Part shown: in pieces, positions 428 to 60,769 of the stretch
Position numbering within the stretch: position 1 is the stretch's first letter
Layout of the letters: each line of letters begins with the position of its first letter
Assembly: GCA_018062765.1 (NCBI GenBank)
Contig: JAGORR010000001.1
Location: 78,638-142,637, forward strand
Direction: 5' to 3'
DNA from: Minisyncoccota bacterium
GTDB lineage: Bacteria > Patescibacteriota > Minisyncoccia > Phycocordibacterales > Phycocordibacteraceae
Length of the DNA stretch: 64,000 nucleotides
The notes under the pieces: generated by a model
Databases searched by the model: none
Told to the model about the DNA's origin: nothing
Seen by the model: the letters and a program-made list of their open reading frames with translations, nothing else
Program-made: the position numbers and the translations under genes

Positions 428-1447
428 CTATTGGTCTCGGGACGAACGGCACCACTTATCGTCTTCGAAGTAGTTGCAGATCCGTGTGCGCTCTGGAGGA
501 AGAGGATTGAGGTCCATGTCGAGCGCTGAGTCGTGTCCTCCGCCTTGGCAGGAATCGTCTATCCCGTAAGCAAAAAGCGTACTCGGGCAAAGGCCGAATT
601 CGGCAAAGCCGCCGCAGAAGTCTTGCTGCTTTTCCTCGCTCAAGCCGACTTTCGCGTATCCGTACGAGGAGAGCTTACTGCACTCGGAAATGAGCGTCGC
701 ATTCTTTTGGCTATCAGTAACGTTGGATACTCGTATCGTCGGATTATTGTCCTGATAGAAGAATCCGTCGAAATCCATGTAGAGGCCGAAACCGGTCTCG
801 AGCCTGCACACGGCGAGTACCCCGTTTGCAACTACGTGGTGGTCGAACTCGTAATCGCCTTCGGAACATCGCTGGCTCCGGAACTCCTCGAGTTTCGCCG
901 AGAGGCTCGCATCGTCGGATGCAGGGAAGAGTTTCGCTCGTACGTAAACGCCATTAGGAATCAAATCTATCCCCTCAGGAGGAACGGGCGGGCCTTCATC
1001 TGTGCGATCGGAAAAATCAGGCTGCAGCTCCTCAAGACTCCCTTCGCATTCCGCGTTTCCAGTAAGACTCAGCGAGAGAATGCACGGGTTGATGATATTG
1101 AAGACGATGACTGGGGACAGGACCAATACGAGTCCCATGATGGCTACCGTAATGAGGTGGCGCGCCTGGCTCTTTTCCGTGAAGCTGTCCGTAAGCATCC
1201 ACAGAATGCCGCCGCGTACTATCTGCAGCACCGCAAGCACCACCGCAATGCCTATGACGAGCGTGTAGACCGTATTAAGGAACATTGGCAGATTGTCCTG
1301 CTCTTCGGCAAGCGCGCCGAACGGCCCGTCCTTCTCGGTAAGTAGAACGAAATCACCAGCTGCATCCTGTGCGGACGCCGCAAGAGGCAGCATGAAGGCG
1401 CCAAGGGCGAGGAGTGCGCGCGAAAGCATCTTCATAAGGTATCTCAT
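428..1447 (-). CDS. Exported membrane protein with T4SS-pilin-like (VirB2/TrbC-like) topology plus a Cys-rich C-terminal domain of about 220 aa.
   Basis: Signal peptide (MLSRALLALGAFMLPLAASAQDA), then two hydrophobic helices within the first ~120 aa, then about ten Cys. ATGA overlap with the upstream gene. Confidence 0.4.
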   Translation of the reverse strand: MRYLMKMLSRALLALGAFMLPLAASAQDAAGDFVLLTEKDGPFGALAEEQDNLPMFLNTVYTLVIGIAVVLAVLQIVRGGILWMLTDSFTEKSQARHLITVAIMGLVLVLSPVIVFNIINPCILSLSLTGNAECEGSLEELQPDFSDRTDEGPPVPPEGIDLIPNGVYVRAKLFPASDDASLSAKLEEFRSQRCSEGDYEFDHHVVANGVLAVCRLETGFGLYMDFDGFFYQDNNPTIRVSNVTDSQKNATLISECSKLSSYGYAKVGLSEEKQQDFCGGFAEFGLCPSTLFAYGIDDSCQGGGHDSALDMDLNPLPPERTRICNYFEDDKWCRSSRDQ

Positions 1448-2469: not shown

Positions 2470-3023
2470 TCCTCGTTATCGTTTGCCGCCGCATCCCTCG
2501 CTATGCTCGCCTCTTCGGCAGCAAGCCACCTGTCATATTTCTTACGGGCTTCCCTGTCGTCGCTACGGACGGTCTGTGTTATCGCCCAAATGCTCATTGT
2601 CGACCATGGTAATACGTTCACATACGGAAGGAATTCGAGAATGCTATTGCCAGCCATGATGAATATGCGTGCCCCCATCTTATCGAGGAAGCCGACACCT
2701 ATAAGACGGAACCATGCGATAAAGACCAGTATCGATATAGCGCTTAGAGCCGCACCGATAATCCAGCCAAGCATTGCGATGCCCACTCCCACTCCCACCG
2801 AGTAGGACGCCACTAACGAGAGACTTGAGACGTAGCAGGCGACGTCTCCAGCCCACACACTCCCTGCCCAACCCTCGACCCAATATTTCGCAAAATAACA
2901 GATCAGTAGGGGCGCAAACACTACCATCAGGGCCCCTATAGTCTGAAGCATTTCAAACGTTAAAGCTACCGCGATCATCCGTATCTGACGGCCGCGCGGC
3001 ATCTTTGGTTCTGGTTTATTCAT
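2448..3023 (-). CDS. Polytopic membrane protein (about 4 TM) of the T4SS-like cluster.
   Basis: ORF with four hydrophobic segments. Its ATG overlaps the stop of the VirB4-like gene (ATGA). Confidence 0.5.
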   Translation of the reverse strand: MNKPEPKMPRGRQIRMIAVALTFEMLQTIGALMVVFAPLLICYFAKYWVEGWAGSVWAGDVACYVSSLSLVASYSVGVGVGIAMLGWIIGAALSAISILVFIAWFRLIGVGFLDKMGARIFIMAGNSILEFLPYVNVLPWSTMSIWAITQTVRSDDREARKKYDRWLAAEEASIARDAAANDNEEWAQQAA

Positions 3024-4852
3024 GGACGGCGGTCCTGGTCCGCTTCAGCAGCGAGCCGTTGTTTTTCCCGTTTGATTGAAAGAATCTGAGAAGGGTCCGA
3101 GGTGATTATCTGGTCCTCCGTGTATGAGGCGACAACCTTGATGGCAACATGCTTGAGGCCAGCAAAGAATAGCCCGTCCCCCACCCCAGCCTCTAGTAGG
3201 AGGAATTTTTCCTGGTCAGTAAGGTTGAATGTTTGCTTCAGGAGATCAATCGTCGTTGGCGACTGCTTCAAAAGAAGCTGCATGGAAGAGTTTGTGAGTA
3301 TCGGGCGCCCATATGGTGAGCGGAGGAAGTCCTCGACGTCCTGGGTAACGGTTGCGAGCCCTAAATAGTATTTACGACCGCGCTTGGCGAGACTGTAGAG
3401 GAATGACGCGGTGTCATCCGATTTCATCATCCACCAAGCCTCGTCGATGACGAGAAGACGCTTTCTCAGCTCGCGCCGTACGGCGTTCCAGATGTAGTGC
3501 GTAATGATATACATCGCAACCGGTTTCAGTTCATCCTCCATATCACGCACCGAGAAGACGATGAACTGCTTATTGATATCGATATTCGTCGGCTGATTCA
3601 GGAAGCCGGCCCAAGTACCCTTTGTGTATTTCGACAGACGCGTCACGAGGGATTCGCTTCCCTCCATCCCGGAGAGTACTGATTCGAAATCCGATAGGAG
3701 CGGTGCGTCCATCCCAGTGAAGTCGCGATTCCCGGTGATGTCCTTAAGGGCATAGGTTTCCGTAATAGCGCGATCGATGATGGCGTCCTCCTCCGGCGTG
3801 AGTCCCCCGAGCATGATGCGGAAGAGACCGACGAGGTTGATGATGACCGAACGCAATATGTCGTTTGGCTCCTCCCCTTCCCGCACGGGCGGAAGATCGA
3901 AAGGATTGATGTGATGCTCCGAGGAAAGCGAGATGTTGAAAAGGCGGCCGCCTGTTGCCTCCGCAAGGTATTCGTACTCGCGCTCAGGGTCGATGACGAT
4001 GACTTCTGTATCGAACATAAGCGAACGGAGAATTTCGAGCTTCACTGCGTAGGATTTTCCGGAGCCCGACTTCGCGAATACGACCGAGTTGTAGTTCTCT
4101 AGAGAGAATCGGTCGAAGAGGACGAGGGATGAGTTGTGGCGGTTGATGCCGTAGAGGATGCCCTTATCGGAGGTGAGGTCGTAGGAGACGAACGGGAATA
4201 GAGAAGAGAGAGGTGAGGTATTGAGTTTCGAATGGACGCCTAGCTCGTCGAGCTCCAGGGGAAGCGTTGAGCGGAAGCCCTGCTCCTGCTGGAATATCGC
4301 AGGCTTTGTGTATACGAGTTTAGCGTCGAGGATACCTCGTAATTTTCCTTCAAGATTATCGAGCTCGTCCTTACTGTCTGCGTAAATGGTTAGGTACAGT
4401 CCGACCTCAAACAAGCGCTCCTGTGCCTGCTGCAGCTGGTCCCGTAGACGCTCCAGGTCCTGGTATGAGGTATCGAGCATTGGGTCGCGCACAAGACCTT
4501 TTTGCGCGCGGTCGGCCTGCTGGCTCTCCACTTCCGCGACTTTCTTCTGGAACTGGCGAAGGATCTGGCCCGTCTCTATGGGGTGGATGAAGATGCCGAC
4601 ATCGAATACTTGGTCCAAATTAATAACCGGGGAAAACCAGTCGTCGGACAAAAACCGCGGATACGAGATGGTGTAAAAGGAGCGCGCAAACTTGGCGCCA
4701 AGCTCCAATTCCCTGCCGGTGACCTTGAGTGCTGCTGGCGCGATAGTGTCCGCCAGGTCTAAGGCTCCCTCTGCATAGATATCCTTAGGAAGCACAGACG
4801 CGATGTCTGGCGCCTCTTCTTTCTTACGGTTAAGGAAATCGAGGAGTGCCAT
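3020..4852 (-). CDS. virB4: VirB4/TrbE/PrgJ-family T4SS ATPase, C-terminal ATPase portion.
   Basis: Walker A (VVFAKSGSGKSYAV), VirB4-type Walker B (LVIDEAWWMM) and a DPEREY motif. The ORF-track start at 4894 (TTG) would translate the upstream heptamer repeat (LYAARCHLYA). Start is placed at the ATG at 4852 (MALLDFL...). Confidence 0.8.
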   Translation of the reverse strand: MALLDFLNRKKEEAPDIASVLPKDIYAEGALDLADTIAPAALKVTGRELELGAKFARSFYTISYPRFLSDDWFSPVINLDQVFDVGIFIHPIETGQILRQFQKKVAEVESQQADRAQKGLVRDPMLDTSYQDLERLRDQLQQAQERLFEVGLYLTIYADSKDELDNLEGKLRGILDAKLVYTKPAIFQQEQGFRSTLPLELDELGVHSKLNTSPLSSLFPFVSYDLTSDKGILYGINRHNSSLVLFDRFSLENYNSVVFAKSGSGKSYAVKLEILRSLMFDTEVIVIDPEREYEYLAEATGGRLFNISLSSEHHINPFDLPPVREGEEPNDILRSVIINLVGLFRIMLGGLTPEEDAIIDRAITETYALKDITGNRDFTGMDAPLLSDFESVLSGMEGSESLVTRLSKYTKGTWAGFLNQPTNIDINKQFIVFSVRDMEDELKPVAMYIITHYIWNAVRRELRKRLLVIDEAWWMMKSDDTASFLYSLAKRGRKYYLGLATVTQDVEDFLRSPYGRPILTNSSMQLLLKQSPTTIDLLKQTFNLTDQEKFLLLEAGVGDGLFFAGLKHVAIKVVASYTEDQIITSDPSQILSIKREKQRLAAEADQDRRP

Positions 4853-4858
4853 ACTAGA

Positions 4859-4893
4859 AGTAGCGTACAGGTGACAGCGTGCAGCGTACAGCA
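4859..4893. repeat. Tandem heptamer array, 5 units: AGTAGCG TACAGGT GACAGCG TGCAGCG TACAGCA. On the gene's sense strand this reads CTGTACG CTGCACG CTGTCAC CTGTACG.
   Basis: Read directly from the sequence. It ends 7 nt upstream of the virB4 C-part ATG. Confidence 0.7.
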
Positions 4894-4920
4894 AAAGCGG
4901 TGCAGGAGTGTTCAGTCTGG

Positions 4921-4941
4921 ACGCTAGCCGCTAGACGCTTC
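4921..4941. repeat. Tandem heptamer array, 3 units: ACGCTAG CCGCTAG ACGCTTC. It is in inverted orientation relative to the 4859-4893 array.
   Basis: Read directly from the sequence. It lies immediately after the stop of the VirB4 N-part ORF. Confidence 0.6.
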
Positions 4942-4944
4942 ATA

Positions 4945-5577
4945 TCATTTTGTAAGCCTTATCGGGCTATCGAGCTCGCCGATGTTGAATGAGCGGTAGA
5001 GAAGCTCGATGATTTCCTCAGTGCCTAGGGGTACTGCGCGAATACCGGCCGAGTTTATGGCGCCTGCAGCCAGGGACATGCGCTGCTCGAGCTGGATGCG
5101 ATGCTCAGCGAATGCGTCGTTCCCTTCCCCGCCAGACCCGGATGACGGAGTGCGCTGGAGGAACGCGAGCGCACTCTTCACTTCCGAACCCGAGCCAGGT
5201 GCCAAAGGAACGACGATGTAGAATGTCTTCGTCATGATGTTTGCTTGATCAGCGAACGCGCGGACGAATTCCATGTATTCGCGTACCTGTATCTTCATGA
5301 GCTCGGTTTCCTGCTTATCTGTGCGCTCCTGAAGGAGTGCTAGGTACGGCCGGATATCCATGCGGCGGGAGTGCACAACAAGCTCCACGGAAAAATCGAG
5401 CGAATTGAGGAAGGTCTGGAATCCGCCGATGACCGCCCGCTGCTCGTCGTCGGATTTCAAGGAGAAGTTCACTGATGAGCACATGAGTATGCCCCGATAC
5501 GTGCCGTCCTTAAGGATGATGACCCCATTACGGACCTCCTTTACTGGAACAAACGACTGAGATGCTTTAGGCGCCAT
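4945..5577 (-). CDS. virB4: VirB4/TrbE N-terminal domain (CagE_TrbE_VirB-like), encoded as a separate ORF.
   Basis: The motif run VPVKEVRNGVIILKDGTYRGILMCSSVNFSLKSDDEQRAV...LNSLDFSVELVV matches the conserved N-terminal region of VirB4/TrbE proteins. It lies directly upstream of the ATPase part, in a different frame. Confidence 0.6.
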   Translation of the reverse strand: MAPKASQSFVPVKEVRNGVIILKDGTYRGILMCSSVNFSLKSDDEQRAVIGGFQTFLNSLDFSVELVVHSRRMDIRPYLALLQERTDKQETELMKIQVREYMEFVRAFADQANIMTKTFYIVVPLAPGSGSEVKSALAFLQRTPSSGSGGEGNDAFAEHRIQLEQRMSLAAGAINSAGIRAVPLGTEEIIELLYRSFNIGELDSPIRLTK

Positions 5578-5986
5578 GGTTTTCTTCCTGCGTGCGGTCC
5601 TTTATATCGAGGGACCATGCTAGGTCCCGAATCTTCGAGGACGACAGCCCGAGCTTCTGGCGGGCTTCTTCTGGGGCGACGACAGCTTTGGGTGCTTCTT
5701 GCGCCTTATCCTCCTTACGCCATACGTAGAGTTTCCCGCCAAACAGGTACGACACCTGTGCCTCGACAATCTCAACGAACGGCTTGTTGTTGACGCGATA
5801 GAACGCGAGGGCGCCAGAGAGTGCGCCGACGGGAAGTGCCACGATGAGGAACCCAATCATGGGAAGGTAGGCAAACGCGATGACGCAGATACCGATGCCT
5901 CCGGCAAGGTATATGAACTGCTTCAGCGTGAATGGTCCAAATATCTTCCCTTCCACTTCGAGAAACTGCGGTACTTGGTACTCCAT
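5567..5986 (-). CDS. PrgI/VirB3-like small T4SS membrane protein.
   Basis: N-terminus MEYQVPQFLEVEGKIFGPFTLKQFIYLAGGIG fits the PrgI-family pattern (VP..L....K.FG.T.KQ), followed by a TM hairpin. It sits in the canonical position upstream of virB4. Confidence 0.55.
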   Translation of the reverse strand: MEYQVPQFLEVEGKIFGPFTLKQFIYLAGGIGICVIAFAYLPMIGFLIVALPVGALSGALAFYRVNNKPFVEIVEAQVSYLFGGKLYVWRKEDKAQEAPKAVVAPEEARQKLGLSSSKIRDLAWSLDIKDRTQEENHGA

Positions 5987-20001: not shown

Positions 20002-20511
20002 TTAGCGCGCGCCGATGAGGAAGCGCTTCGGATCCTCGCACATGTCGGTAAACGCGTGCGCGGCTTCTTTCAGTTTCCCCGACGACGACTTCCCGAACGA
20101 GATCACCTCGGTCTGTACGCCGTTCATATCAAGGAATTCGATAAGTGGTACGAAGTCACCATCGCCAGTCGCGAGGATTATCGTATCGAGCTTGTCTGAG
20201 AGTTTCACCGCGTCTATTGCGATACCCACATCCCAGTCCGCCTTCTTCGCGCCATCGGAGAAGACCTGCAGGTCCTTGACCTTGGTCTCGATGCCGATTT
20301 TGGTGAGCGCGTCGAAGAAGTTTTTCTCGTCCCCTGCCTCGGTCGAGATGACGTATGCGATAGCGCGCACCAAGGTGCGGCCTCCCACGGCCTCTTCGAG
20401 GACCTTGGCGAAGTTGACTCGCGCTTTATAAAGGTTCTTCGCGCTGTGGTACAGGTTCTGCGTATCGATGAAAACGCCGACGCGCTGAGCCGTATGTTTA
20501 ATGACTGCCAT
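20002..20511 (-). CDS. NYN-domain (LabA-like) predicted ribonuclease.
   Basis: VGVFIDTQNLY N-terminus and the TGDGDF motif. Confidence 0.7.
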   Translation of the reverse strand: MAVIKHTAQRVGVFIDTQNLYHSAKNLYKARVNFAKVLEEAVGGRTLVRAIAYVISTEAGDEKNFFDALTKIGIETKVKDLQVFSDGAKKADWDVGIAIDAVKLSDKLDTIILATGDGDFVPLIEFLDMNGVQTEVISFGKSSSGKLKEAAHAFTDMCEDPKRFLIGAR

Positions 20512-20517
20512 ATAAAT

Positions 20518-20545
20518 AGCTATTAGCTTCTAGCTTTGAGCTTCC
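20518..20545. repeat. (AGCTANN)x4 tandem heptamer array: AGCTATT AGCTTCT AGCTTTG AGCTTCC.
   Basis: Four AGCT cores exactly 7 bp apart, 7 nt upstream of the NYN start codon. Confidence 0.7.
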
Positions 20546-20652
20546 AGATATGAAAAAGGAAAACCCAAAAAGTTTGTAAATCGGGAACAGGCCGAGCGGC
20601 CTCCCTCTCCCATGCTACCACTGAAGCACAAAGCCCCGTTTGGGGCCTGTGA

Positions 20653-40051: not shown

Positions 40052-40056
40052 ATGAA

Positions 40057-40091
40057 TACAGGGTACAGCGTACAGGTTACAGCGTACAGTG
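40057..40091. repeat. Five perfect-phase tandem heptamers: TACAGGG TACAGCG TACAGGT TACAGCG TACAGTG.
   Basis: Read directly. On the sense strand it ends 5 nt before the ATG of the small membrane protein. Confidence 0.75.
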
Positions 40092-40126
40092 GAAAACGAA
40101 CAAACGCCGCGATGCGACGTTTGTTC
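40091..40126 (-). terminator. Rho-independent terminator for ppa (GAACAAACG / CGTTTGTTC followed by GTTTTCC on the minus strand).
   Basis: 9-bp stem with an 11-nt loop and a U-run. Confidence 0.5.
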
Positions 40127-40131
40127 CTGAC

Positions 40132-40159
40132 AGCTAAAAGCTAGAAGCTGTAAGCTATT
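40132..40159. repeat. (AGCTANN)x4 tandem heptamer array: AGCTAAA AGCTAGA AGCTGTA AGCTATT.
   Basis: AGCT cores at 40132, 40139, 40146 and 40153. The last core overlaps the ppa stop codon. Confidence 0.7.
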
Positions 40160-42353: not shown

Positions 42354-43331
42354 TTAGGCGAATGCCCAGTCACCATTGATCGTGGTCGCTTCTGCAGCGA
42401 ACACCAAAGGCGGGGGCGGAACCCACTCGACGCCAGGAGCCAGATAGATGTGGCCGACGTTCGCCCCGTTCTCGATCGTCAACGACTTGGACGAGATTAC
42501 GAGGTCGTGTCCGACCATCGTGATTTCGCTGTTGTCGAGGCCGAGCGAGGTCAGGACAAGCGAGTCGTGGACGTTCGCATCGGAGAGCACGGTAGTGCCG
42601 TTGCCGAACCGGGCGTCGAAGACGTCCGAGCCCGAGCCGCCGTGCATGGTGTCGTTGCCGCCACCGCGCAGGACGTCGCGTCCGTCGCCGCCAACGAGGA
42701 AGTCGCCCACCCCGTCTTCGACACCGTTCGACTGGAAACCACGGACGTCGTCGTTGCCGTCGCCGCCGTGGACCGTGTCGGCTCCGTTGCCGCCGAACAG
42801 TGTGTCGTTGCCGTCCTCGCCGTAGAGCGAGTCGTCACCGTTGTTGCCGTTCAGCGTGTCGCTGTCAGCACCGCCCCAGGCGCGATCGCGCGCCGACGAA
42901 CCGCTGACCCAGTCGTTGCCGGCGCCGCCGAAAAACTGGTCGAGGCCGGTACCGCCGAACATCTTGTCGTGGCCGTCGCCGCCGATGAACATGTTGTCCC
43001 CGGTCGAGCCGCGAGCGTAGAGGTAGTCGTCGCCTTGTACGCCGAGCAGCCAGTTGTCGCCGCTCCCGTTGACCCTGACCTCGTCGTTGCCTTCGCCGCC
43101 GACCAGCTGGTCGTTCCCGGAGGCAGAGATCAGCTGGTCGTTCCCGGAGTGGCCCTCTAGGTGGTCGTCGCCCTGGGTGCCGATGAGGGTGTCGTTGCCG
43201 GCACCTGCAAGGATGGCGAGGCCGTGATCCGTAAACGCGCGGAAGTCCATGCGATTCGGGTCGTGGTCGCCCCACCTGGTGGTGGCGTCAGTGGCGAAGT
43301 AGGTCGGCATCACGGGTTCTGCACGGTTCAT
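42354..43331 (-). CDS. RTX-type (hemolysin-type Ca-binding GGxGxD nonapeptide repeat) protein.
   Basis: More than 15 tandem GxxGxDxL/F-type nonapeptides (GGEGNDEV, GGDGHDKMFGG, GGAGNDWVSG...). No N-terminal signal peptide. Non-repeat C-terminal region of about 90 aa. Confidence 0.7.
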   Translation of the reverse strand: MNRAEPVMPTYFATDATTRWGDHDPNRMDFRAFTDHGLAILAGAGNDTLIGTQGDDHLEGHSGNDQLISASGNDQLVGGEGNDEVRVNGSGDNWLLGVQGDDYLYARGSTGDNMFIGGDGHDKMFGGTGLDQFFGGAGNDWVSGSSARDRAWGGADSDTLNGNNGDDSLYGEDGNDTLFGGNGADTVHGGDGNDDVRGFQSNGVEDGVGDFLVGGDGRDVLRGGGNDTMHGGSGSDVFDARFGNGTTVLSDANVHDSLVLTSLGLDNSEITMVGHDLVISSKSLTIENGANVGHIYLAPGVEWVPPPPLVFAAEATTINGDWAFA

Positions 43332-46660: not shown

Positions 46661-48391
46661 GTGCGTTATCATTTCATTATGCCGTTTGAAAATCGGGGGA
46701 TGACTTTAATCGACGTTCTCGTCGGTACTTCCGTCGCGGTCATCATTTTCCTCGGCATCTTCGTTATCCTTCAGGCATCCGCATCCATTACGGGCGCGTC
46801 TGCATCGAAGGCGACCGCATTGGCGCTCGCCAACGGGCGTATTGAGATGTTGCGCTCCTTACCATACGCATCCATAGGAACGGTGGGCGGCATTCCGTCA
46901 GGTGCCATCGCGCAGGAAGAGACCATTTATTCCGATCTGGTGCCGTACGAGGTCCGTACCTTCATCTCTTACTACGACGATGCGAAGGACGGCTCGGGCG
47001 CTGCAGACTCTAATGGCATCCAGGCGGACTACAAGCGGGCGAAGGTGACAGTTACCTACGAGACACAGAACGGGGAGCGGGAAGTAGCCGTCGTTTCGAC
47101 CTTTGCGCCGATTGGAATCGAGACGACTGCGGGTGGCGGCACGCTACGCGTCGTCGTTGTGGACGCTGACGGCGTAGCGGTTCCAGGAGCAGAAGTTGTT
47201 GTCGAAAATCCAAATACAACTCCCACAATCGACGTAACGACGTACACAGACTTCGCGGGGTACGCCTTATTCCCGGGTGCCGCGACCTCAACGGGGTACG
47301 AGGTGTCAGTCACAAAGGGCGGGTGGTCTACGGCGCGCACCTATAGTCAGGACGCAACCAACCAGAACCCGACACCGGGACATCTCACCATCGCTGGGGG
47401 GCAGACGACGACCGGCACGTTTGCGATAGATGAGCTTGCGGCCGTCCTCGTGCGTTCCTTTACACCGGTTGTGCCTGGCACATGGTCCGATGCATTTATA
47501 GATGCGTCGAATCTCGTGACGATGGTGGGTGTATCGGTAGGTGGAGGCGAGCTCACGCTCGCAACTGGCGCGGACGGGTATGAGGCGTCAGGTGCTGCCG
47601 TCGCGTCATCGGTAGCACCCACCTATCTTGTTGCGTGGCACGAAGCGTCATTTACTCCCGCAACTCCTGGCGGGACGACGCTTCTGGTGAAAGTTACCGA
47701 CGCTGCCGGTACCTTGGTGCCGGACGCCGCGCTCCCCGGGAACAGCAGTGGTTTCGCGGCATCACCAATAGACCTCTCCGCGCTCGCAACATCGACCTAT
47801 CCATCTCTTTCGCTACGTGCTGAGCTTTCAACCGCTGCCACTACGACAACGCCGACGCTTGCGGATTGGGGGCTGGCCTATAGTCGTGGTCCGATACCGT
47901 ATCCGTCTCTGGCGTTCTCGCTTACAGGCGCGAAAGCCATAGGTTCTACCGTAGGCGGCGCACCTATATATAAGACCGAACTCGATGAGACGACCGATTC
48001 TTCCGGAAGCATCGGCCTCGATCTTGAGTGGGACAGCTACACACTCTCGCTCTCAGGCCCCGTGATTATCGATACCTGTGCCGCGTTCCCACTTGAAGTG
48101 GCGCCTGGCGCGGGTATGACGGCGGACATTATCGTTGCGACTTCGACTGGGAATGCGCTCAAGGCGTATGCGAAATTTCTGTCGGGGAGCGCTGTGGCGA
48201 GTCCTACGTTCACTCTCTCGAGGAGCGGCTTTTCGCGCACGTTGCCTGGGAACGTGTGCGGATTTGCTTACTTTGGAGACCTCACGCCAGCTGCCGATTA
48301 CGCGCTTTCTGTGACTTCGACCTCTACGACCGAGTCGTTCACTGACATTTCTATTTCCGGTCTTTCAAGCTATGACGCGATTCTCGATTGA
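46661..48391 (+). CDS. Large type IV pilin-like protein (class III signal peptide) with a Thr/Ser/Gly-rich extracellular region.
   Basis: FENRG|MTLIDVLVGTSVAVIIFLGIFVIL prepilin-type N-terminus. 576 aa. The true start may be the ATG at 46679. Confidence 0.55.
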   Translation: MRYHFIMPFENRGMTLIDVLVGTSVAVIIFLGIFVILQASASITGASASKATALALANGRIEMLRSLPYASIGTVGGIPSGAIAQEETIYSDLVPYEVRTFISYYDDAKDGSGAADSNGIQADYKRAKVTVTYETQNGEREVAVVSTFAPIGIETTAGGGTLRVVVVDADGVAVPGAEVVVENPNTTPTIDVTTYTDFAGYALFPGAATSTGYEVSVTKGGWSTARTYSQDATNQNPTPGHLTIAGGQTTTGTFAIDELAAVLVRSFTPVVPGTWSDAFIDASNLVTMVGVSVGGGELTLATGADGYEASGAAVASSVAPTYLVAWHEASFTPATPGGTTLLVKVTDAAGTLVPDAALPGNSSGFAASPIDLSALATSTYPSLSLRAELSTAATTTTPTLADWGLAYSRGPIPYPSLAFSLTGAKAIGSTVGGAPIYKTELDETTDSSGSIGLDLEWDSYTLSLSGPVIIDTCAAFPLEVAPGAGMTADIIVATSTGNALKAYAKFLSGSAVASPTFTLSRSGFSRTLPGNVCGFAYFGDLTPAADYALSVTSTSTTESFTDISISGLSSYDAILD

Positions 48392-49058
48392 TATGGAAAG
48401 AGCAGCGAGCAGCGAAAAGTGTACAGCGACTAGGAATATGACCACCGCTTCTTCCGCGGCTATACGCTTTCGGGCCGGCTTTACGCTTATCGAGACGTTG
48501 ATGGTGATTGGTCTTACCGCCGTCGTGGGACTCGCGATTTCGAACATGATTTTGTTCACCTATCGCACGAACACCTACCTCTACCAGCAGAGCGCAGCGA
48601 CTGATAACGCGCGACGCGGCCTCGACCCGGCGCTGCAGAACCTACGCGAGGCGACCTACGCTGCTGATGGCTCGTATCCGCTGTCGACGGCAGCTACTTC
48701 GTCCGTAACTTTCTTCAGCGACGTCGATGTCGACGGATCGGTTGAGAAAATTCGTTACTATCTCTCAGGGACGACGTTCTATCGCACGATTACGAATCCG
48801 GCAGGTTCGCCCCCGTCATACGTGGGGCAGGCAGCCGCGACGTCGACTATCGCTTCCTACGTGAAGAATTTCTCCGCAAACGCGAGCGTGTTCCGCTATT
48901 ACGACAGCACCGGAACGGAGCTTGCAGCGCCCATTGATGTTGCTGAGGTGAGGAGTATCAGTATCTCGGTAATGGTCGACGTGGACCCAAACCGCACACC
49001 AACGACCTATTCGCTCACGGGCTCGGCGACATTCCGCAACCTGCGCGATACTGATTGA
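48372..49058 (+). CDS. Type IV prepilin (canonical G|FTLIE).
   Basis: RFRAG|FTLIETLMVIGLTAVVGLAIS. The heptamer array at 48401-48428 lies inside the annotated 5' end. The real start is probably the ATG at 48438. Confidence 0.6.
   Translation: MTRFSIDMERAASSEKCTATRNMTTASSAAIRFRAGFTLIETLMVIGLTAVVGLAISNMILFTYRTNTYLYQQSAATDNARRGLDPALQNLREATYAADGSYPLSTAATSSVTFFSDVDVDGSVEKIRYYLSGTTFYRTITNPAGSPPSYVGQAAATSTIASYVKNFSANASVFRYYDSTGTELAAPIDVAEVRSISISVMVDVDPNRTPTTYSLTGSATFRNLRDTD
48401..48428. repeat. Tandem heptamers AGCAGCG AGCAGCG AAAAGTG TACAGCG.
   Basis: Same TACAGCG-family unit as the 4859 and 40057 arrays. It ends 9 nt before the ATG at 48438. Confidence 0.6.
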
Positions 49059-49059
49059 T

Positions 49060-50589
49060 ATGGAAAGGAAAGCGTTTAGCGTAGAGCGTAGAGCATGTAG
49101 GAAAGACGGACCGGCTTCTTCTATACGCTATACGCTATCAGCTAGACACTCTCTGCAAGGCGGGTATCTCATGCTCCTGTCGCTCGTCTTTGGCGGGATA
49201 TTCCTAGGACTCCTCGGAGCGCTAACGAGCTACGTTCTTCTTGAGAATCGGCTTCAGGACCAGAAGGACGCGCAAGGTCGTGCATTTGCGATAGCTGAAG
49301 CAGGGCTCGAGTACTATCGATGGTTCTTGGCGCACTATCCGGGAAACGTCACGAATGGAGTTTCAGGCGGCCCCACAACGTTTACGCTTCCGTACTATGA
49401 CCCGGAGGGCGAGCAGCTCGGAAACTACACGCTGACGCTGAATCAGAATTCCGCCTGTGGCGCCGTCTCCTCCGTAGATATCGAATCGGAGGGCGCTACG
49501 CTCGATATGCCACAGGTGACACAGACGGTATCGGCGCGCTACGCGCAGCCTTCGGTTGGGCGTTATTCCTACGTATTGAATGACAGCGTATGGGCCGGCG
49601 CGGACCGCATCATCCTGGGGCCCTATCACTCCAATGGTGGTATCCGTATGGACGGGACCGCAAACTCATCTGTGTCGAGCTCGGTTTCGACTTGGAACTG
49701 CACGAGTAGCTACGGCTGTAGCCCAACGCAGTCGGCTGCGCCAGGCGTTGTTGGCACAGGCCCCAATCAGAGTCTTTGGACGTATCCGGTGCCGCAGGTG
49801 GACTTTGCGGCCATAGCTGCGGATTTTGCCTCGCTCAAATCGACCGCGCAGGCGCAGGGTCTCTACTATCCTCGCTACAGTAATACGAACAATCCGAATT
49901 CCTCTGCGTACTGGCACGGATACCACCTCACATTTAACGCAAACGACACCGTTACGGTTCGGCGCGTGACCTCAACAACGGAACTCGAGGTCGAGCCAGT
50001 GAATCCGGCGGAGACCCTCGATACAGACCGCGCGCTGATAGCGAACGAAACCATGTATGAAACGAGGACGATACCCGCTTCATGCGGACTCATCTACGTG
50101 GAGGATCACGTATGGATAGATGGCACCATCCCGTCTGAAGTGACGGTCGTTGCCGCTAATACAGCGTCGGGGCTCTCACCAAACGCATACCTGCGCAACA
50201 ACATCGTGTATGAAAATACAGACGGTAGTTCTGGCCTCACACTTATTGCGGAGAACAACGTGCTGATTGCACCTAACGCGCCTGCTGCAATGACCCTGAA
50301 CGGCATCTTCATCGCACAGAACGGTGCGTTTGGTCGGAACCTCTACTACAACAATTCCCGGACAGCATGCCACTCAACCTATGAACCGAAAACATCTCTC
50401 ACCATCCTTGGCACCACGGTCTCGAACAAGCGCACCGGAACCAAGTGGACCGGCGTTTCCTGCTCGGGCGGATACGCGGGCTTCGGTACCCGTATCGACT
50501 CCTACGACGAGCAGATGGCCATAGATCCACCACCCTTCACTCCTATCGTTTCGACCGATTACGAGATTATGGATTGGCGTGAACGGTAG
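49060..50589 (+). CDS. Pseudopilin/minor-pilin-like protein (N-terminal hydrophobic helix, no Glu5).
   Basis: SLQGGYLMLLSLVFGGIFLGLLGALTSYVLLE. 509 aa. Two heptamer arrays (49075-49102 and 49121-49148) lie in its annotated 5' region. The ATG at 49171 is an alternative start. Confidence 0.45.
   Translation: MERKAFSVERRACRKDGPASSIRYTLSARHSLQGGYLMLLSLVFGGIFLGLLGALTSYVLLENRLQDQKDAQGRAFAIAEAGLEYYRWFLAHYPGNVTNGVSGGPTTFTLPYYDPEGEQLGNYTLTLNQNSACGAVSSVDIESEGATLDMPQVTQTVSARYAQPSVGRYSYVLNDSVWAGADRIILGPYHSNGGIRMDGTANSSVSSSVSTWNCTSSYGCSPTQSAAPGVVGTGPNQSLWTYPVPQVDFAAIAADFASLKSTAQAQGLYYPRYSNTNNPNSSAYWHGYHLTFNANDTVTVRRVTSTTELEVEPVNPAETLDTDRALIANETMYETRTIPASCGLIYVEDHVWIDGTIPSEVTVVAANTASGLSPNAYLRNNIVYENTDGSSGLTLIAENNVLIAPNAPAAMTLNGIFIAQNGAFGRNLYYNNSRTACHSTYEPKTSLTILGTTVSNKRTGTKWTGVSCSGGYAGFGTRIDSYDEQMAIDPPPFTPIVSTDYEIMDWRER
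49075..49102. repeat. Tandem heptamers TTTAGCG TAGAGCG TAGAGCA TGTAGGA.
   Basis: Read directly. TANAGCG-type units. Confidence 0.6.
49121..49148. repeat. Tandem heptamers CTATACG CTATACG CTATCAG CTAGACA. Inverted relative to the 49075-49102 array.
   Basis: Same units as the sense strand of the 40680-40714 array. Confidence 0.65.
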
Positions 50590-60335: not shown

Positions 60336-60743
60336 ATGGCGACCATCAATCAGCTTTCGAAGAAGCACCGCAAGGACAAGACTCGTAAGTCTAAGGTCCT
60401 TGCTCTTGGGCGTGGTTTCAATCACCTCGAGAACCGTCCCACCTACTACTCGGCCCCCTTCAAGCGCGGTGTCTGCACGAAGGTAACGACGAAGACTCCT
60501 CGCAAGCCTAACTCGGCTATTCGTAAGATTGCCCGTGTCCGTCTCTCTAACGGTATGGAGGTTACGGCGTATATCCCAGGCGAGGGACACAACCTCCAGG
60601 AGCACTCCGTCGTCCTGCTTCGTGGTGGTCGCGTGAAGGACATCGGTGTCCAGTACACTATCGTTCGCGGCAAGCTCGACACTGCAGGCCTTGAGAAGCG
60701 ACGCCGTGGACGATCGCGCTACGGAGCGAAGAAACCAAAATAG
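60336..60743 (+). CDS. rpsL: 30S ribosomal protein S12.
   Basis: [10 protein letters not shown]...[16 protein letters not shown]...[10 protein letters not shown]. Start trimmed to the ATG at 60336. Confidence 0.95.
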
Positions 60744-60769
60744 CTATCAGCTACTAGCTACGAGCTTTA
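60742..60769. repeat. (AGCTANN)x4 tandem heptamer array: AGCTATC AGCTACT AGCTACG AGCTTTA.
   Basis: AGCT cores at 60742, 60749, 60756 and 60763. The first core overlaps the rpsL TAG stop. It ends 12 nt before the rpsG ATG. Confidence 0.7.

What the first reader, a model, noticed from the sequence alone, without database searches (positions are those of the whole stretch)
3020..5577. VirB4 ATPase encoded as two separate ORFs, split at the domain boundary by a repeat-bearing spacer
ORF 4945-5577 carries the conserved VirB4/TrbE N-terminal domain. ORF 3020-4852 carries the Walker A/B ATPase domain. They are in different frames, 92 nt apart. The spacer holds a 5-unit heptamer array (4859-4893) and an inverted 3-unit array (4921-4941). 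The C-part has its own ATG directly after the array. This could be a genuine two-polypeptide VirB4, a frameshifted pseudogene, or a repeat-mediated (phase-variable?) switch.
Basis: seen in the sequence. Interest (0 to 1): 0.55.

Follow-up and report, generated by a model that had tools for sequence, protein, structure and literature searches.

The report
Two-gene VirB4 with recent spacer insert
The type IV secretion ATPase VirB4 really is encoded as two genes here, but this is the normal, already published arrangement in Patescibacteria (TrsD-like protein plus VirB4), and the only unusual part is a recently inserted 90-base repeat element between the two genes.

Summary
Two intact minus-strand ORFs lie 92 nt apart in different frames, and the gap carries imperfect 7-nt arrays. 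The split is not a lesion or a switch. All 78 related Paceibacterota species with readable DNA have the same two genes, usually 1-6 nt apart, with a real stop codon and a conserved ATG (MALLDF...). 149 of 150 diverse representatives of the N-part are stand-alone proteins, and both halves are under purifying selection.

The N-part is a TrsD/TraC-like protein with the fold of the first ~175-200 residues of VirB4. The split therefore lies inside the VirB4 N-terminal domain, not at the ATPase domain boundary. TrsD plus VirB4 in Patescibacteria was published in 2025 (PMC12102498), and Firmicutes plasmids carry the same trio.

The spacer is a recent ~89-nt insertion. A strain with 94% identical DNA has only a 3-nt gap. 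Five independent assemblies show the same spacer length, so there is no sign of phase variation.

The insert belongs to a family of heptad arrays that sit next to start codons elsewhere in this genome. A 29-codon mini-ORF tiles the gap exactly. Long gaps in other species are tiled the same way, which hints at relayed translational coupling in a genome that uses no Shine-Dalgarno sites. This last point is unproven.

The parts
5567..5986 (-). PrgI family (VirB3-like) membrane protein. Its 3' end overlaps the N-part start by 11 nt.
   Evidence: Pfam PF12666 PrgI, E 2.3e-7, 31.7 bits against a cut-off of 27. The same gene sits upstream of the N-part in related loci.
4945..5577 (-). N-part: a 210-aa stand-alone TrsD/TraC-like protein, equivalent to the first ~175-200 residues of VirB4.
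   Evidence: - 3650 homologues; the best 120 are all about 203-227 aa.
- The precomputed Pfam family is PF26593 TraC-like.
- The top 14 Foldseek PDB hits are all TrwK/VirB4 of R388, probability 0.97-1.0.
- NCBIfam matches the N-termini of VirB4 models and TrsD/TraD.
- It is 36% identical to residues 8-208 of the fused 797-aa P0218.
4853..4944 (-). 92-nt intercistronic spacer, of which about 89 nt is a recent lineage-specific insertion.
   Evidence: Relatives with 98%, 91% and 88% identical N-part proteins have 3-nt gaps. 67 of 78 species have gaps of 1-6 nt. Five assemblies carry the identical spacer.
4854..4943 (-). Mini-ORF of 29 codons plus stop (MKRLAASVQTEHSCTAFAVRCTLSPVRYF). It starts 1 nt after the N-part stop and ends 1 nt before the C-part ATG (TGAtATG...TAGtATG).
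   Evidence: Read directly from the sequence. The tiling probability is 0.013-0.07 in shuffles, depending on whether the fixed upstream ATGA is counted as a start, and 0.11 given the start codon. The single SNP among assemblies is synonymous in this frame.
4917..4941 (-). 5' arm of the insert. On the coding strand it reads AAG-CGTC TAG-CGGC TAG-CGTC CAG, i.e. (NAG-N4)x4.
   Evidence: TRF and the pattern match at 4917-4939(-). The TAG triplets fall only in the two frames the mini-ORF does not use (read from the sequence).
4859..4893 (-). 3' arm of the insert. On the coding strand it reads CTGTACG CTGCACG CTGTCAC CTGTACG CTACTTC and ends 6 nt before the C-part ATG.
   Evidence: TRF and pattern matches. 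A closely similar array lies at 40054-40091 directly upstream of another start codon.
3020..4852 (-). C-part: 610-aa VirB4 ATPase lacking the first ~180-200 residues of a full VirB4. It contains the rest of the N-terminal domain plus the Walker A/B ATPase domain.
   Evidence: - NCBIfam conju_CD1110 scores 371.6 bits against a cut-off of 325, covering model positions 184-733 of 752.
- PDB 4AG5 VirB4 C-terminal domain, E 9e-45, aligns to aa 229-585. TrwK residues 289-736 align to aa 114-552.
- The start MALLDF is conserved in 78 of 78 species.
428..1447 (-). Putative T4SS pilin-like protein at the distal end of the same minus-strand cluster.
   Evidence: Pfam PF18895 T4SS_pilin, E 1.7e-5, 25.2 bits. 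This is just below the 26.6 cut-off, so the assignment is tentative.

Best explanation
This is the ordinary two-gene form of VirB4 used by the chromosomal, monoderm-type type IV secretion system of Patescibacteria.

Gene order is PrgI (VirB3-like), then a ~210-aa TrsD/TraC-like protein that supplies the first part of the VirB4 N-terminal domain, then a 610-aa VirB4 that carries the rest of that domain and the ATPase. The two polypeptides are made separately. They presumably assemble non-covalently at the membrane with PrgI (inferred).

In relatives the second gene starts 1-6 nt after the first gene's stop and has no Shine-Dalgarno site. Its translation is therefore most likely coupled to termination of the first gene (inferred).

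In this lineage an ~89-nt element was recently inserted at the junction. It consists of a (NAG-N4)n arm, a short centre and an inverted (CTGTACG)n arm. It belongs to a family of heptad arrays found next to start codons elsewhere in the genome.

Expression of the C-part across the insert is most plausibly kept by a 29-codon mini-ORF that starts 1 nt after the upstream stop and ends 1 nt before the C-part ATG, relaying the ribosome (hypothesis). Alternatively the 3' arm provides a start-proximal promoter or initiation element.
For: The split is conserved:
- 78 of 78 species loci have a stop codon (TAA 65, TAG 11, TGA 2) followed by ATG-GCA-CTN (MALLDF). The gap is 1-6 nt in 67 of them. The relative frame is 0, 1 or 2 in 43, 18 and 17 loci, so no conserved frameshift or readthrough exists.
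- 149 of 150 50%-identity representatives of the N-part are stand-alone.

The two parts together make one VirB4:
- The fused 797-aa Colwellbacteria protein aligns to both parts.
- NCBIfam coordinates are complementary: the N-part covers model positions 5-136 and the C-part 184-733 of the same 752-position model.
- The N-part model matches the TrwK/VirB4 fold.

Both halves are under purifying selection: synonymous versus non-synonymous codon differences are 247/33 (C-part) and 92/20 (N-part).

Published and external precedent:
- PMC12102498 reports 2,272 TrsD homologues in Patescibacteria, 1,664 of them next to virB4. The Southlakia homologue is essential.
- Paenibacillus plasmid pSC2 carries the same PrgI, TrsD-like, DUF87 trio.

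The insert is recent and stable:
- A strain with 94% identical DNA (L207) has TAAcccATG at the junction.
- Five independent assemblies carry an identical-length spacer.

The insert belongs to a dispersed family.

No Shine-Dalgarno use:
- 0 of 78 C-part starts have a core SD, against a 15% background.
- In the window 10 of 59 genes have one, which equals background. A TAnnnT hexamer peaks at exactly -12 from the start codon.

Mini-ORFs tile every long gap examined:
- All four N/C gaps of 55 nt or more (window, L003, L007, L030), the 30-nt L070 gap, and both long PrgI/N gaps (L053, L077) are tiled.
Against: - No expression, protein or interaction data exist. Assembly of the two polypeptides is inferred.
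- The local Pfam copy gave no hit for the N-part, and the TrsD NCBIfam score is far below its cut-off.
- The mini-ORF tiling criteria were set after seeing the data. Given a start codon, tiling is not rare (p 0.07-0.69 per case).
- Heptad units are poor in stop codons on this strand, which inflates open frames.
- The L007 spacer contains what reads by eye as a terminator-like hairpin, plus TATACT 7 nt before the ATG. This points to a promoter rather than a relay there.
- The spacer RNA is not unusually structured (z = +0.48).
Confidence: 0.85

Rival explanations
1. Frameshifted or interrupted pseudogene: a once-continuous virB4 was broken here by an indel or by the repeat insertion.
For: The two parts are in different frames and separated by a repeat-bearing gap. 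A fused 797-aa homologue exists in Ca. Colwellbacteria.
Against: All 78 related species have the same stop/ATG boundary, and 149 of 150 representatives are stand-alone. Synonymous changes far outnumber non-synonymous ones in both halves. Relatives without the insert are split in the same way.
Confidence: 0.01
2. Phase-variable switch: slippage of the 7-nt units changes spacing or frame and turns the C-part on or off.
For: Period-7 tandem units, not a multiple of 3, lie directly upstream of the C-part ATG. A unit change would shift the mini-ORF stop relative to the ATG.
Against: The units are imperfect (76-84% matches, with indels). Five assemblies from different samples have identical length and one SNP. 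The C-part has its own conserved ATG, so its frame cannot be switched.
Confidence: 0.03
3. The insert acts as an internal promoter or initiation element. The (CTGTANN)n arm is a tandem run of TAnnCT (-10-like) hexamers that drives a near-leaderless C-part transcript, and the mini-ORF is incidental.
For: - This genome shows a leaderless signature: TAnnnT at -12 in 11 of 59 genes.
- The homologous array at 40054-40091 lies between an intrinsic-terminator-like hairpin (z = -4.5) and a start codon, so it must hold that gene's promoter if the gene is expressed.
- The L007 spacer has what reads as a terminator-like hairpin plus TATACT 7 nt before the ATG.
- About 10% of metagenome (CTGTACG)n arrays sit 10-40 nt upstream of the first ATG of a long ORF on the same strand.
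Against: - In the spacer the hexamer TACGCT starts at -15, not -12.
- The consensus sigma-70 scan finds nothing there.
- The hexamer-to-ATG offsets in metagenome cases are spread over 11-16.
- The arrays between rpsL and rpsG and at 20515 are AGCT-type and lack TAnnnT in register.
Confidence: 0.3
4. The insert is a neutral, tolerated piece of selfish or slippage-generated DNA, and C-part expression is simply reduced or unaffected.
For: It is a very recent gain. It has no significant RNA structure and no Rfam, promoter or terminator match. Heptad arrays are sporadic among related genomes: 30 observed against about 20 expected in 629 kb.
Against: The exact tiling by an ORF recurs in every independent long gap. 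The TAGs of the 5' arm avoid the mini-ORF frame. The C-part remains under strong purifying selection.
Confidence: 0.3

Closest known systems
TrsD + VirB4 of the Patescibacteria T4SS (PMC12102498, Microb Genom 2025)
   Same: The gene set and order match: PrgI/VirB3, TrsD-like protein, VirB4, plus a pilin-like gene. The TrsD homologue is adjacent to virB4 and remotely homologous to the VirB4 N-terminus. The host is a Paceibacterota MAG.
   Different: Nothing in kind. This locus additionally has an ~89-nt insert between the two genes, which is absent in 74 of 78 related species.
TrsD/TrsE (TraD/TraE) of the pGO1/pSK41/pIP501-type MPF_FATA conjugation systems, and the PrgI / hypothetical / DUF87 trios on Firmicutes plasmids
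   Same: A stand-alone ~200-aa protein homologous to the VirB4 N-terminus is encoded immediately upstream of the VirB4-like ATPase. The NF041427 match spans model positions 27-142 of 201. In Paenibacillus pSC2 the order is PrgI, a 332-aa protein, then a 641-aa DUF87 protein after an 18-nt gap.
   Different: Identity is only about 25-28%. The NF041427 score of 21 bits is far below its 200-bit cut-off. Those systems are plasmid conjugation systems, whereas this is a chromosomal system of an epibiont-type lineage.
Single-chain VirB4 (TrwK of R388, PDB 7O41/8RTB; CD1110-family VirB4)
   Same: Fold and sequence are collinear with N-part plus C-part. A fused 797-aa relative exists in Ca. Colwellbacteria.
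   Different: Here the chain is cut at about TrwK residue 175, inside the N-terminal domain.
Intergenic heptanucleotide arrays: TAACTGA direct repeats of Beggiatoaceae, Cyanobacteria and Bacteroidetes (PMC4679880), and cyanobacterial STRR heptamers (the latter from my own knowledge)
   Same: These are short tandem 7-nt arrays, mostly within a few nucleotides upstream of start codons and also inside ribosomal-protein operons. The surrounding intergenic regions lack canonical ribosome-binding sites (window arrays).
   Different: The unit sequence differs (AGCGTAC or AGCT-type). Only the AG/CT positions are kept. The arrays often come as inverted pairs flanking a centre. Patescibacteria are not among the lineages named in the abstract of PMC4679880; only the abstract and outline were read.
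Rickettsia palindromic elements (from my own knowledge; not tested here)
   Same: Small palindromic insertions that land in expressed regions and keep a reading frame open.
   Different: RPEs insert in frame within genes and become part of the protein. Here the insert sits between two cistrons and carries its own start and stop.

Membership tests
VirB4-family T4SS ATPase (C-part) | Walker A and Walker B P-loop ATPase domain of VirB4/TraC type | tested here: met
   GSGKS at aa 263-267 and LLVIDEAW at aa 466-473. Pfam P-loop_TraG, E 1.2e-25. PDB 4AG5 VirB4 C-terminal domain, E 9e-45.
VirB4-family T4SS ATPase (C-part) | Score above the curated cut-off of a VirB4 equivalog model | tested here: met
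   NF045971 conju_CD1110 scores 371.6 bits against a cut-off of 325, but covers only model positions 184-733 of 752.
VirB4-family T4SS ATPase (C-part) | Complete N-terminal domain on the same polypeptide | tested here: not met
   Model positions 5-136 are matched by the separate 210-aa ORF. A stop codon separates the two in 78 of 78 species.
VirB4-family T4SS ATPase (C-part) | Encoded with other T4SS membrane components | tested here: met
   PrgI (VirB3-like) lies directly upstream. The T4SS_pilin hit is just below its cut-off. The other cluster genes have no family hit.
TrsD/TraD and Pfam TraC-like (PF26593) (N-part) | Profile match to the family | tested here: inconclusive
   The precomputed PF26593 TraC-like hit is on record for this exact protein and its homologues. 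The local Pfam scan returned nothing. NF041427 TrsD gives E 2e-4 and 21 bits, against a 200-bit cut-off.
TrsD/TraD and Pfam TraC-like (PF26593) (N-part) | Stand-alone ~200-aa protein encoded immediately upstream of virB4 | tested here: met
   The arrangement is also reported in PMC12102498.
TrsD/TraD and Pfam TraC-like (PF26593) (N-part) | Homology to the N-terminal part of VirB4 | tested here: met
   The top 14 Foldseek hits are all TrwK/VirB4. It is 36% identical to residues 8-208 of the fused P0218. It matches the N-termini of three VirB4 NCBIfam models.
Physical complex of N-part with C-part and PrgI | Direct interaction of the polypeptides | not testable with these tools
   No multimer prediction or experimental data were available.
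Phase-variable simple-sequence contingency locus | Perfect or near-perfect tandem units | tested here: not met
   76% and 84% matches, with 15% indels in the longer array.
Phase-variable simple-sequence contingency locus | Unit-number polymorphism between populations | tested here: not met
   Five independent assemblies have identical length and one SNP. Read-level heterogeneity was not testable.
Frameshift pseudogene | Orthologues are uninterrupted and selection is relaxed | tested here: not met
Intergenic heptanucleotide arrays (TAACTGA/STRR type) | Tandem 7-nt units, intergenic, close upstream of start codons | tested here: met
   Six period-7 arrays against 0 in shuffles, and none at periods 8-13. 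The positions relative to starts were read.
Intergenic heptanucleotide arrays (TAACTGA/STRR type) | The specific unit TAACTGA (or STRR1-3) | tested here: not met
   The units here are AGCGTAC/CTGTACG or NNNAGCT.

The most novel reading that the evidence does not exclude
The heptad-array inserts, built as a (NAG-N4)n arm, a centre and a (CTGTANN)n arm, would be a recently active class of small insertions that can enter operons of Shine-Dalgarno-less, leaderless-type Patescibacteria genomes. They would be tolerated because each carries, or quickly acquires, a mini-ORF that starts at the upstream stop and ends at the downstream ATG. This would relay termination-reinitiation coupling across the insert.
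Probability: 0.2. Interest if true: 0.55.

Novelty: already known. Interest (0 to 1): 0.22.

Why it matters
The main finding does not change what is known. It places this locus among the TrsD plus VirB4 systems already described for Patescibacteria, where the T4SS is thought to matter for the epibiotic lifestyle. It does make the published description more precise: the cut lies inside the VirB4 N-terminal domain, at about TrwK residue 175.

The side finding could matter modestly. If the mini-ORF relay is real, it would show how internal genes keep being translated in genomes that lack Shine-Dalgarno sites. It would also give the poorly understood intergenic heptanucleotide arrays a testable role.

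Tried and rejected
- The local Pfam scan of the N-part at E up to 10 gave no hit.
- A PDB sequence-profile search with the N-part alignment gave no hit. Only the fold search worked.
- Folding the spacer RNA gave z = +0.48, so it is not a meaningful hairpin. Related inserts gave z between -0.7 and -1.8. Only the site downstream of ppa is strong, because it holds a terminator-like hairpin.
- Rfam at a permissive threshold and the promoter/terminator scans on 4700-5100 found nothing.
- Extending the junction survey to the gene after the C-part failed. The 191-aa product is too poorly conserved, with only 3 loci matched.
- Heptad arrays are not generally enriched around the T4SS of related species: 30 observed against 14-28 in shuffles. 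They are sporadic.
- I tested whether the 3' arm is a run of -10 boxes for leaderless transcripts. The offsets in metagenome examples are 11-16 and not sharp, so the result is inconclusive.
- Recoding that would join the two parts (readthrough, frameshift or bypass) is rejected. Stop codons are mostly TAA and the relative frame varies among species.
- A HutP/TRAP-like NAG-repeat RNA-binding protein was considered from memory only. It was not tested.
Full report
**1. What is in the sequence.**
All genes of the region lie on the minus strand.
- ORF 4945-5577 encodes 210 aa and ends with TGA at 4945-4947.
- The next ORF has an ATG at 4850-4852 and runs to 3020, giving 610 aa. A TTG-extended version reaches 4894.
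- The gap is 92 nt and the frames differ.
- TRF reports a period-7 array at 4862-4892 (4.4 copies, 76% matches) and one at 4920-4939 (2.9 copies, 84% matches). They are in inverted orientation.
- The C-part has Walker A (GSGKS, aa 263-267) and Walker B (LLVIDEAW, aa 466-473). It hits Pfam P-loop_TraG, AAA_10 and DUF87.
- Upstream, overlapping the N-part start by 11 nt, is a PrgI (VirB3-like) gene at 5567-5986.

**2. The split is conserved, not a lesion.**
- A search with the N-part found 3650 homologues. The best 120 are all about 203-227 aa and come from Patescibacteria/Paceibacterota.
- I fetched 80 loci from different species. In every one of the 78 with readable downstream DNA, the N-part ends at a stop codon (TAA 65, TAG 11, TGA 2). 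The C-part then begins at residue 1 with a conserved ATG-GCA-CTN-CTN-GAT-TTC (MALLDF).
- The gap is 1-6 nt in 67 loci and 19 nt or less in 74. The relative frame is 0, 1 or 2 in 43, 18 and 17 loci. A conserved frameshift, readthrough or bypass is therefore excluded.
- In an exhaustive profile search, 149 of the best 150 50%-identity representatives are stand-alone.
- Codon comparisons with close relatives give 247 synonymous against 33 non-synonymous differences for the C-part, and 92 against 20 for the N-part.
- NCBI already annotates the two as separate proteins of a Ca. Paceibacterota MAG: MBP6860487.1 (hypothetical protein) and MBP6860486.1 (DUF87 domain-containing protein).

**3. What the two parts are.**
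- The single fused representative, a 797-aa protein seen in three Ca. Colwellbacteria records, is 36% identical to the N-part over its residues 8-208. It is 57% identical to the C-part over residues 226-796.
- An AlphaFold model of the N-part (pLDDT 74) gives TrwK/VirB4 of plasmid R388 as its top 14 Foldseek PDB hits (probability 0.97-1.0, TM about 0.46). The hit list then drops sharply.
- NCBIfam places the N-part on positions 5-136 of the 752-position CD1110-type VirB4 model, and on TrsD/TraD. It places the C-part on positions 184-733 of the same model, above the curated cut-off.
- The precomputed Pfam family for the N-part is PF26593 'TraC-like'. The local Pfam copy did not report it.
- By sequence, C-part residues 114-552 align to TrwK 289-736, and residues 229-585 align to the crystallised VirB4 C-terminal domain 4AG5.

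The cut therefore falls at about TrwK residue 175, inside the N-terminal domain.

**4. Already known.**
- PMC12102498 (2025) reports TrsD as the most abundant T4SS component in Patescibacteria. [quoted passage not shown]
- That paper counts 2,272 homologues, of which 1,664 are associated with virB4. It states that the homologue in Southlakia epibionticum is essential.
- The arrangement also exists outside the phylum. tblastn finds N-part relatives on 122 mostly Firmicutes plasmids. In Paenibacillus pSC2 the order is PrgI, a 332-aa protein, then a 641-aa DUF87 protein.

**5. The spacer is a recent insertion.**
- Relatives whose N-part proteins are 88% and 91% identical have a 3-nt gap.
- A strain with a 98.1% identical N-part protein (94% identical DNA) has TAAcccATG at the junction.
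- Five assemblies from different samples carry the insert with identical length. They differ by one SNP, which is synonymous in the mini-ORF frame. The insert is thus real, fixed in this lineage, and shows no unit-number variation.
- The spacer RNA is not unusually stable (z = +0.48). It matches no Rfam family and contains no consensus promoter or terminator.

**6. The insert belongs to a dispersed family.**
- Period-7 arrays are over-represented in the window: six at a strict threshold against none in shuffles, and none at periods 8-13.
- The (AG-N5)x4 pattern occurs 23 times against 2.1 expected.
- The matches cluster at six places:
  - the VirB4 spacer;
  - 20515-20547, upstream of the start at 20511(-);
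  - 40054-40159, between the stop of a pyrophosphatase gene and the ATG of a small membrane-protein gene, flanking a terminator-like hairpin;
  - 48400-48433 and 49067-49150, at the 5' ends of two pilin-like genes, each following TGAtATG;
  - 60739-60766, between rpsL and rpsG.
- On the coding strand the common layout is stop, (NAG-N4)n, centre, (CTGTACG-like)n, ATG. The copies align in register.
- The same layout, sometimes with other units, occurs at T4SS junctions of other species: L003 at the N/C junction and L053 and L077 at the PrgI/N junction.
- In L057 an array follows the N-part stop and precedes an inserted SET-domain gene.
- (CTGTACG)n arrays are widespread in metagenomes.
- The closest described phenomenon is the TAACTGA heptamer arrays that lie just upstream of start codons in Beggiatoaceae, Cyanobacteria and Bacteroidetes (PMC4679880).

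**7. How the C-part may still be expressed.**
- This genome does not seem to use Shine-Dalgarno sites. A core SD motif precedes 10 of 59 genes, which equals background.
- A TAnnnT hexamer starts exactly 12 nt before the start codon in 11 of 59 genes, against 0-4 at other offsets. This is the signature of leaderless transcripts.
- None of the 78 C-part starts in relatives has a core SD, against a 15% background. Together with the 1-6-nt gaps, this points to termination-reinitiation coupling.
- A 92-nt insert would break that coupling. Yet a 29-codon ORF (4943 to 4854) starts 1 nt after the N-part stop and ends 1 nt before the C-part ATG (TGAtATG...TAGtATG).
- All other long gaps are tiled in the same way: L003, L007, L030 and L070 at the N/C junction, and L053 and L077 at the PrgI/N junction.
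  - For the four N/C gaps of 55 nt or more, shuffles give 0.009-0.07 per case without conditioning.
  - For those four gaps given the start codon, shuffles give 0.07-0.28.
  - Tiling is much less rare for L070, L053 and L077 (0.14-0.69), because a fixed ATGA start lies upstream of each.
- I regard a ribosome relay as the most attractive mechanism. However, the criteria were set after seeing the data, and heptad units are poor in stop codons on this strand.
- The alternative is a promoter or initiation element in the 3' arm. The terminator-flanked copy at 40054-40091 supports this. So does L007, which has what reads as a terminator-like hairpin plus TATACT 7 nt before the ATG.
- The offsets from hexamer to ATG are not sharp. 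I could not discriminate between these mechanisms, or between either one and neutrality.

**8. Verdict.**
The finding is real but ordinary for this phylum and already published in kind. The pseudogene and phase-switch readings are rejected. The modestly new elements are the precise position of the cut, the recent heptad-array insert, and the recurrent tiling mini-ORFs.

Noticed in passing
window 20515-20547, 40054-40159, 48400-48433, 49067-49150, 60739-60766: Further period-7 arrays lie directly next to gene starts or stops. The units are AGCGTAC/CTGTACG-type or NNNAGCT-type. One array sits between rpsL and rpsG. Another pair flanks a terminator-like hairpin downstream of a pyrophosphatase gene. 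The (AG-N5)x4 pattern occurs 23 times against 2.1 expected.
   Followed up: partly
window, whole (59 ORFs of at least 100 aa): The genome shows a leaderless-type start signature. A TAnnnT hexamer, usually preceded by GC, starts exactly 12 nt before the start codon in 11 of 59 genes. Shine-Dalgarno motifs occur only at background frequency (10 of 59).
   Followed up: partly
L003 4628-4729; L007 4607-4748; L030 4637-4691; L053 3893-3992; L077 3930-3990: Every long intercistronic gap at the PrgI/N-part or N-part/C-part junctions of other species is spanned by a mini-ORF of 16-44 codons. Each begins at or overlaps the upstream stop and ends within a few nt of the downstream ATG.
   Followed up: partly
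L057 4633-5545: In this species the N-part is followed by a heptad array, then a SET-domain gene and a gene that reads like a four-helix-bundle (rRNA-intervening-sequence-type) protein. Both identifications were made by eye from the translation. No C-part is found within the remaining 900 nt of the contig.
   Followed up: no
L007 4690-4748: By eye, the 142-nt N/C spacer of this species contains a terminator-like hairpin (CCCCA...TGGGG followed by a T-run). TATACT lies 7 nt before the C-part ATG, which would be an apparent separate leaderless promoter for the ATPase gene.
   Followed up: no
P0218 / MBI3088895.1 (Ca. Colwellbacteria): A fused 797-aa VirB4 (N-part plus C-part in one chain) recurs in three records. 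It lacks about 20 junction residues that are conserved in the split forms. Whether it is ancestral or a secondary fusion is open.
   Followed up: partly
metagenome loci L086-L205: (CTGTACG)n heptamer arrays are widespread in environmental metagenomes. The scan stopped at 120 stretches. Many carry an inverted AGCGTTC-type arm a few tens of nt upstream, and some are long satellites.
   Followed up: partly
window 48372-50589: Two adjacent pilin-like genes each start at a TGAtATG junction. The first carries a prepilin-type motif (RAGFTLIETLM). Their 5' ends contain heptad arrays and resemble the VirB4 spacer at the DNA level and at the mini-ORF peptide level.
   Followed up: no
window 42750-42985: Tandem repeats of 27 and 54 nt (2-4 copies, 68-79% matches) lie inside the minus-strand ORF 42354-43331.
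   Followed up: no
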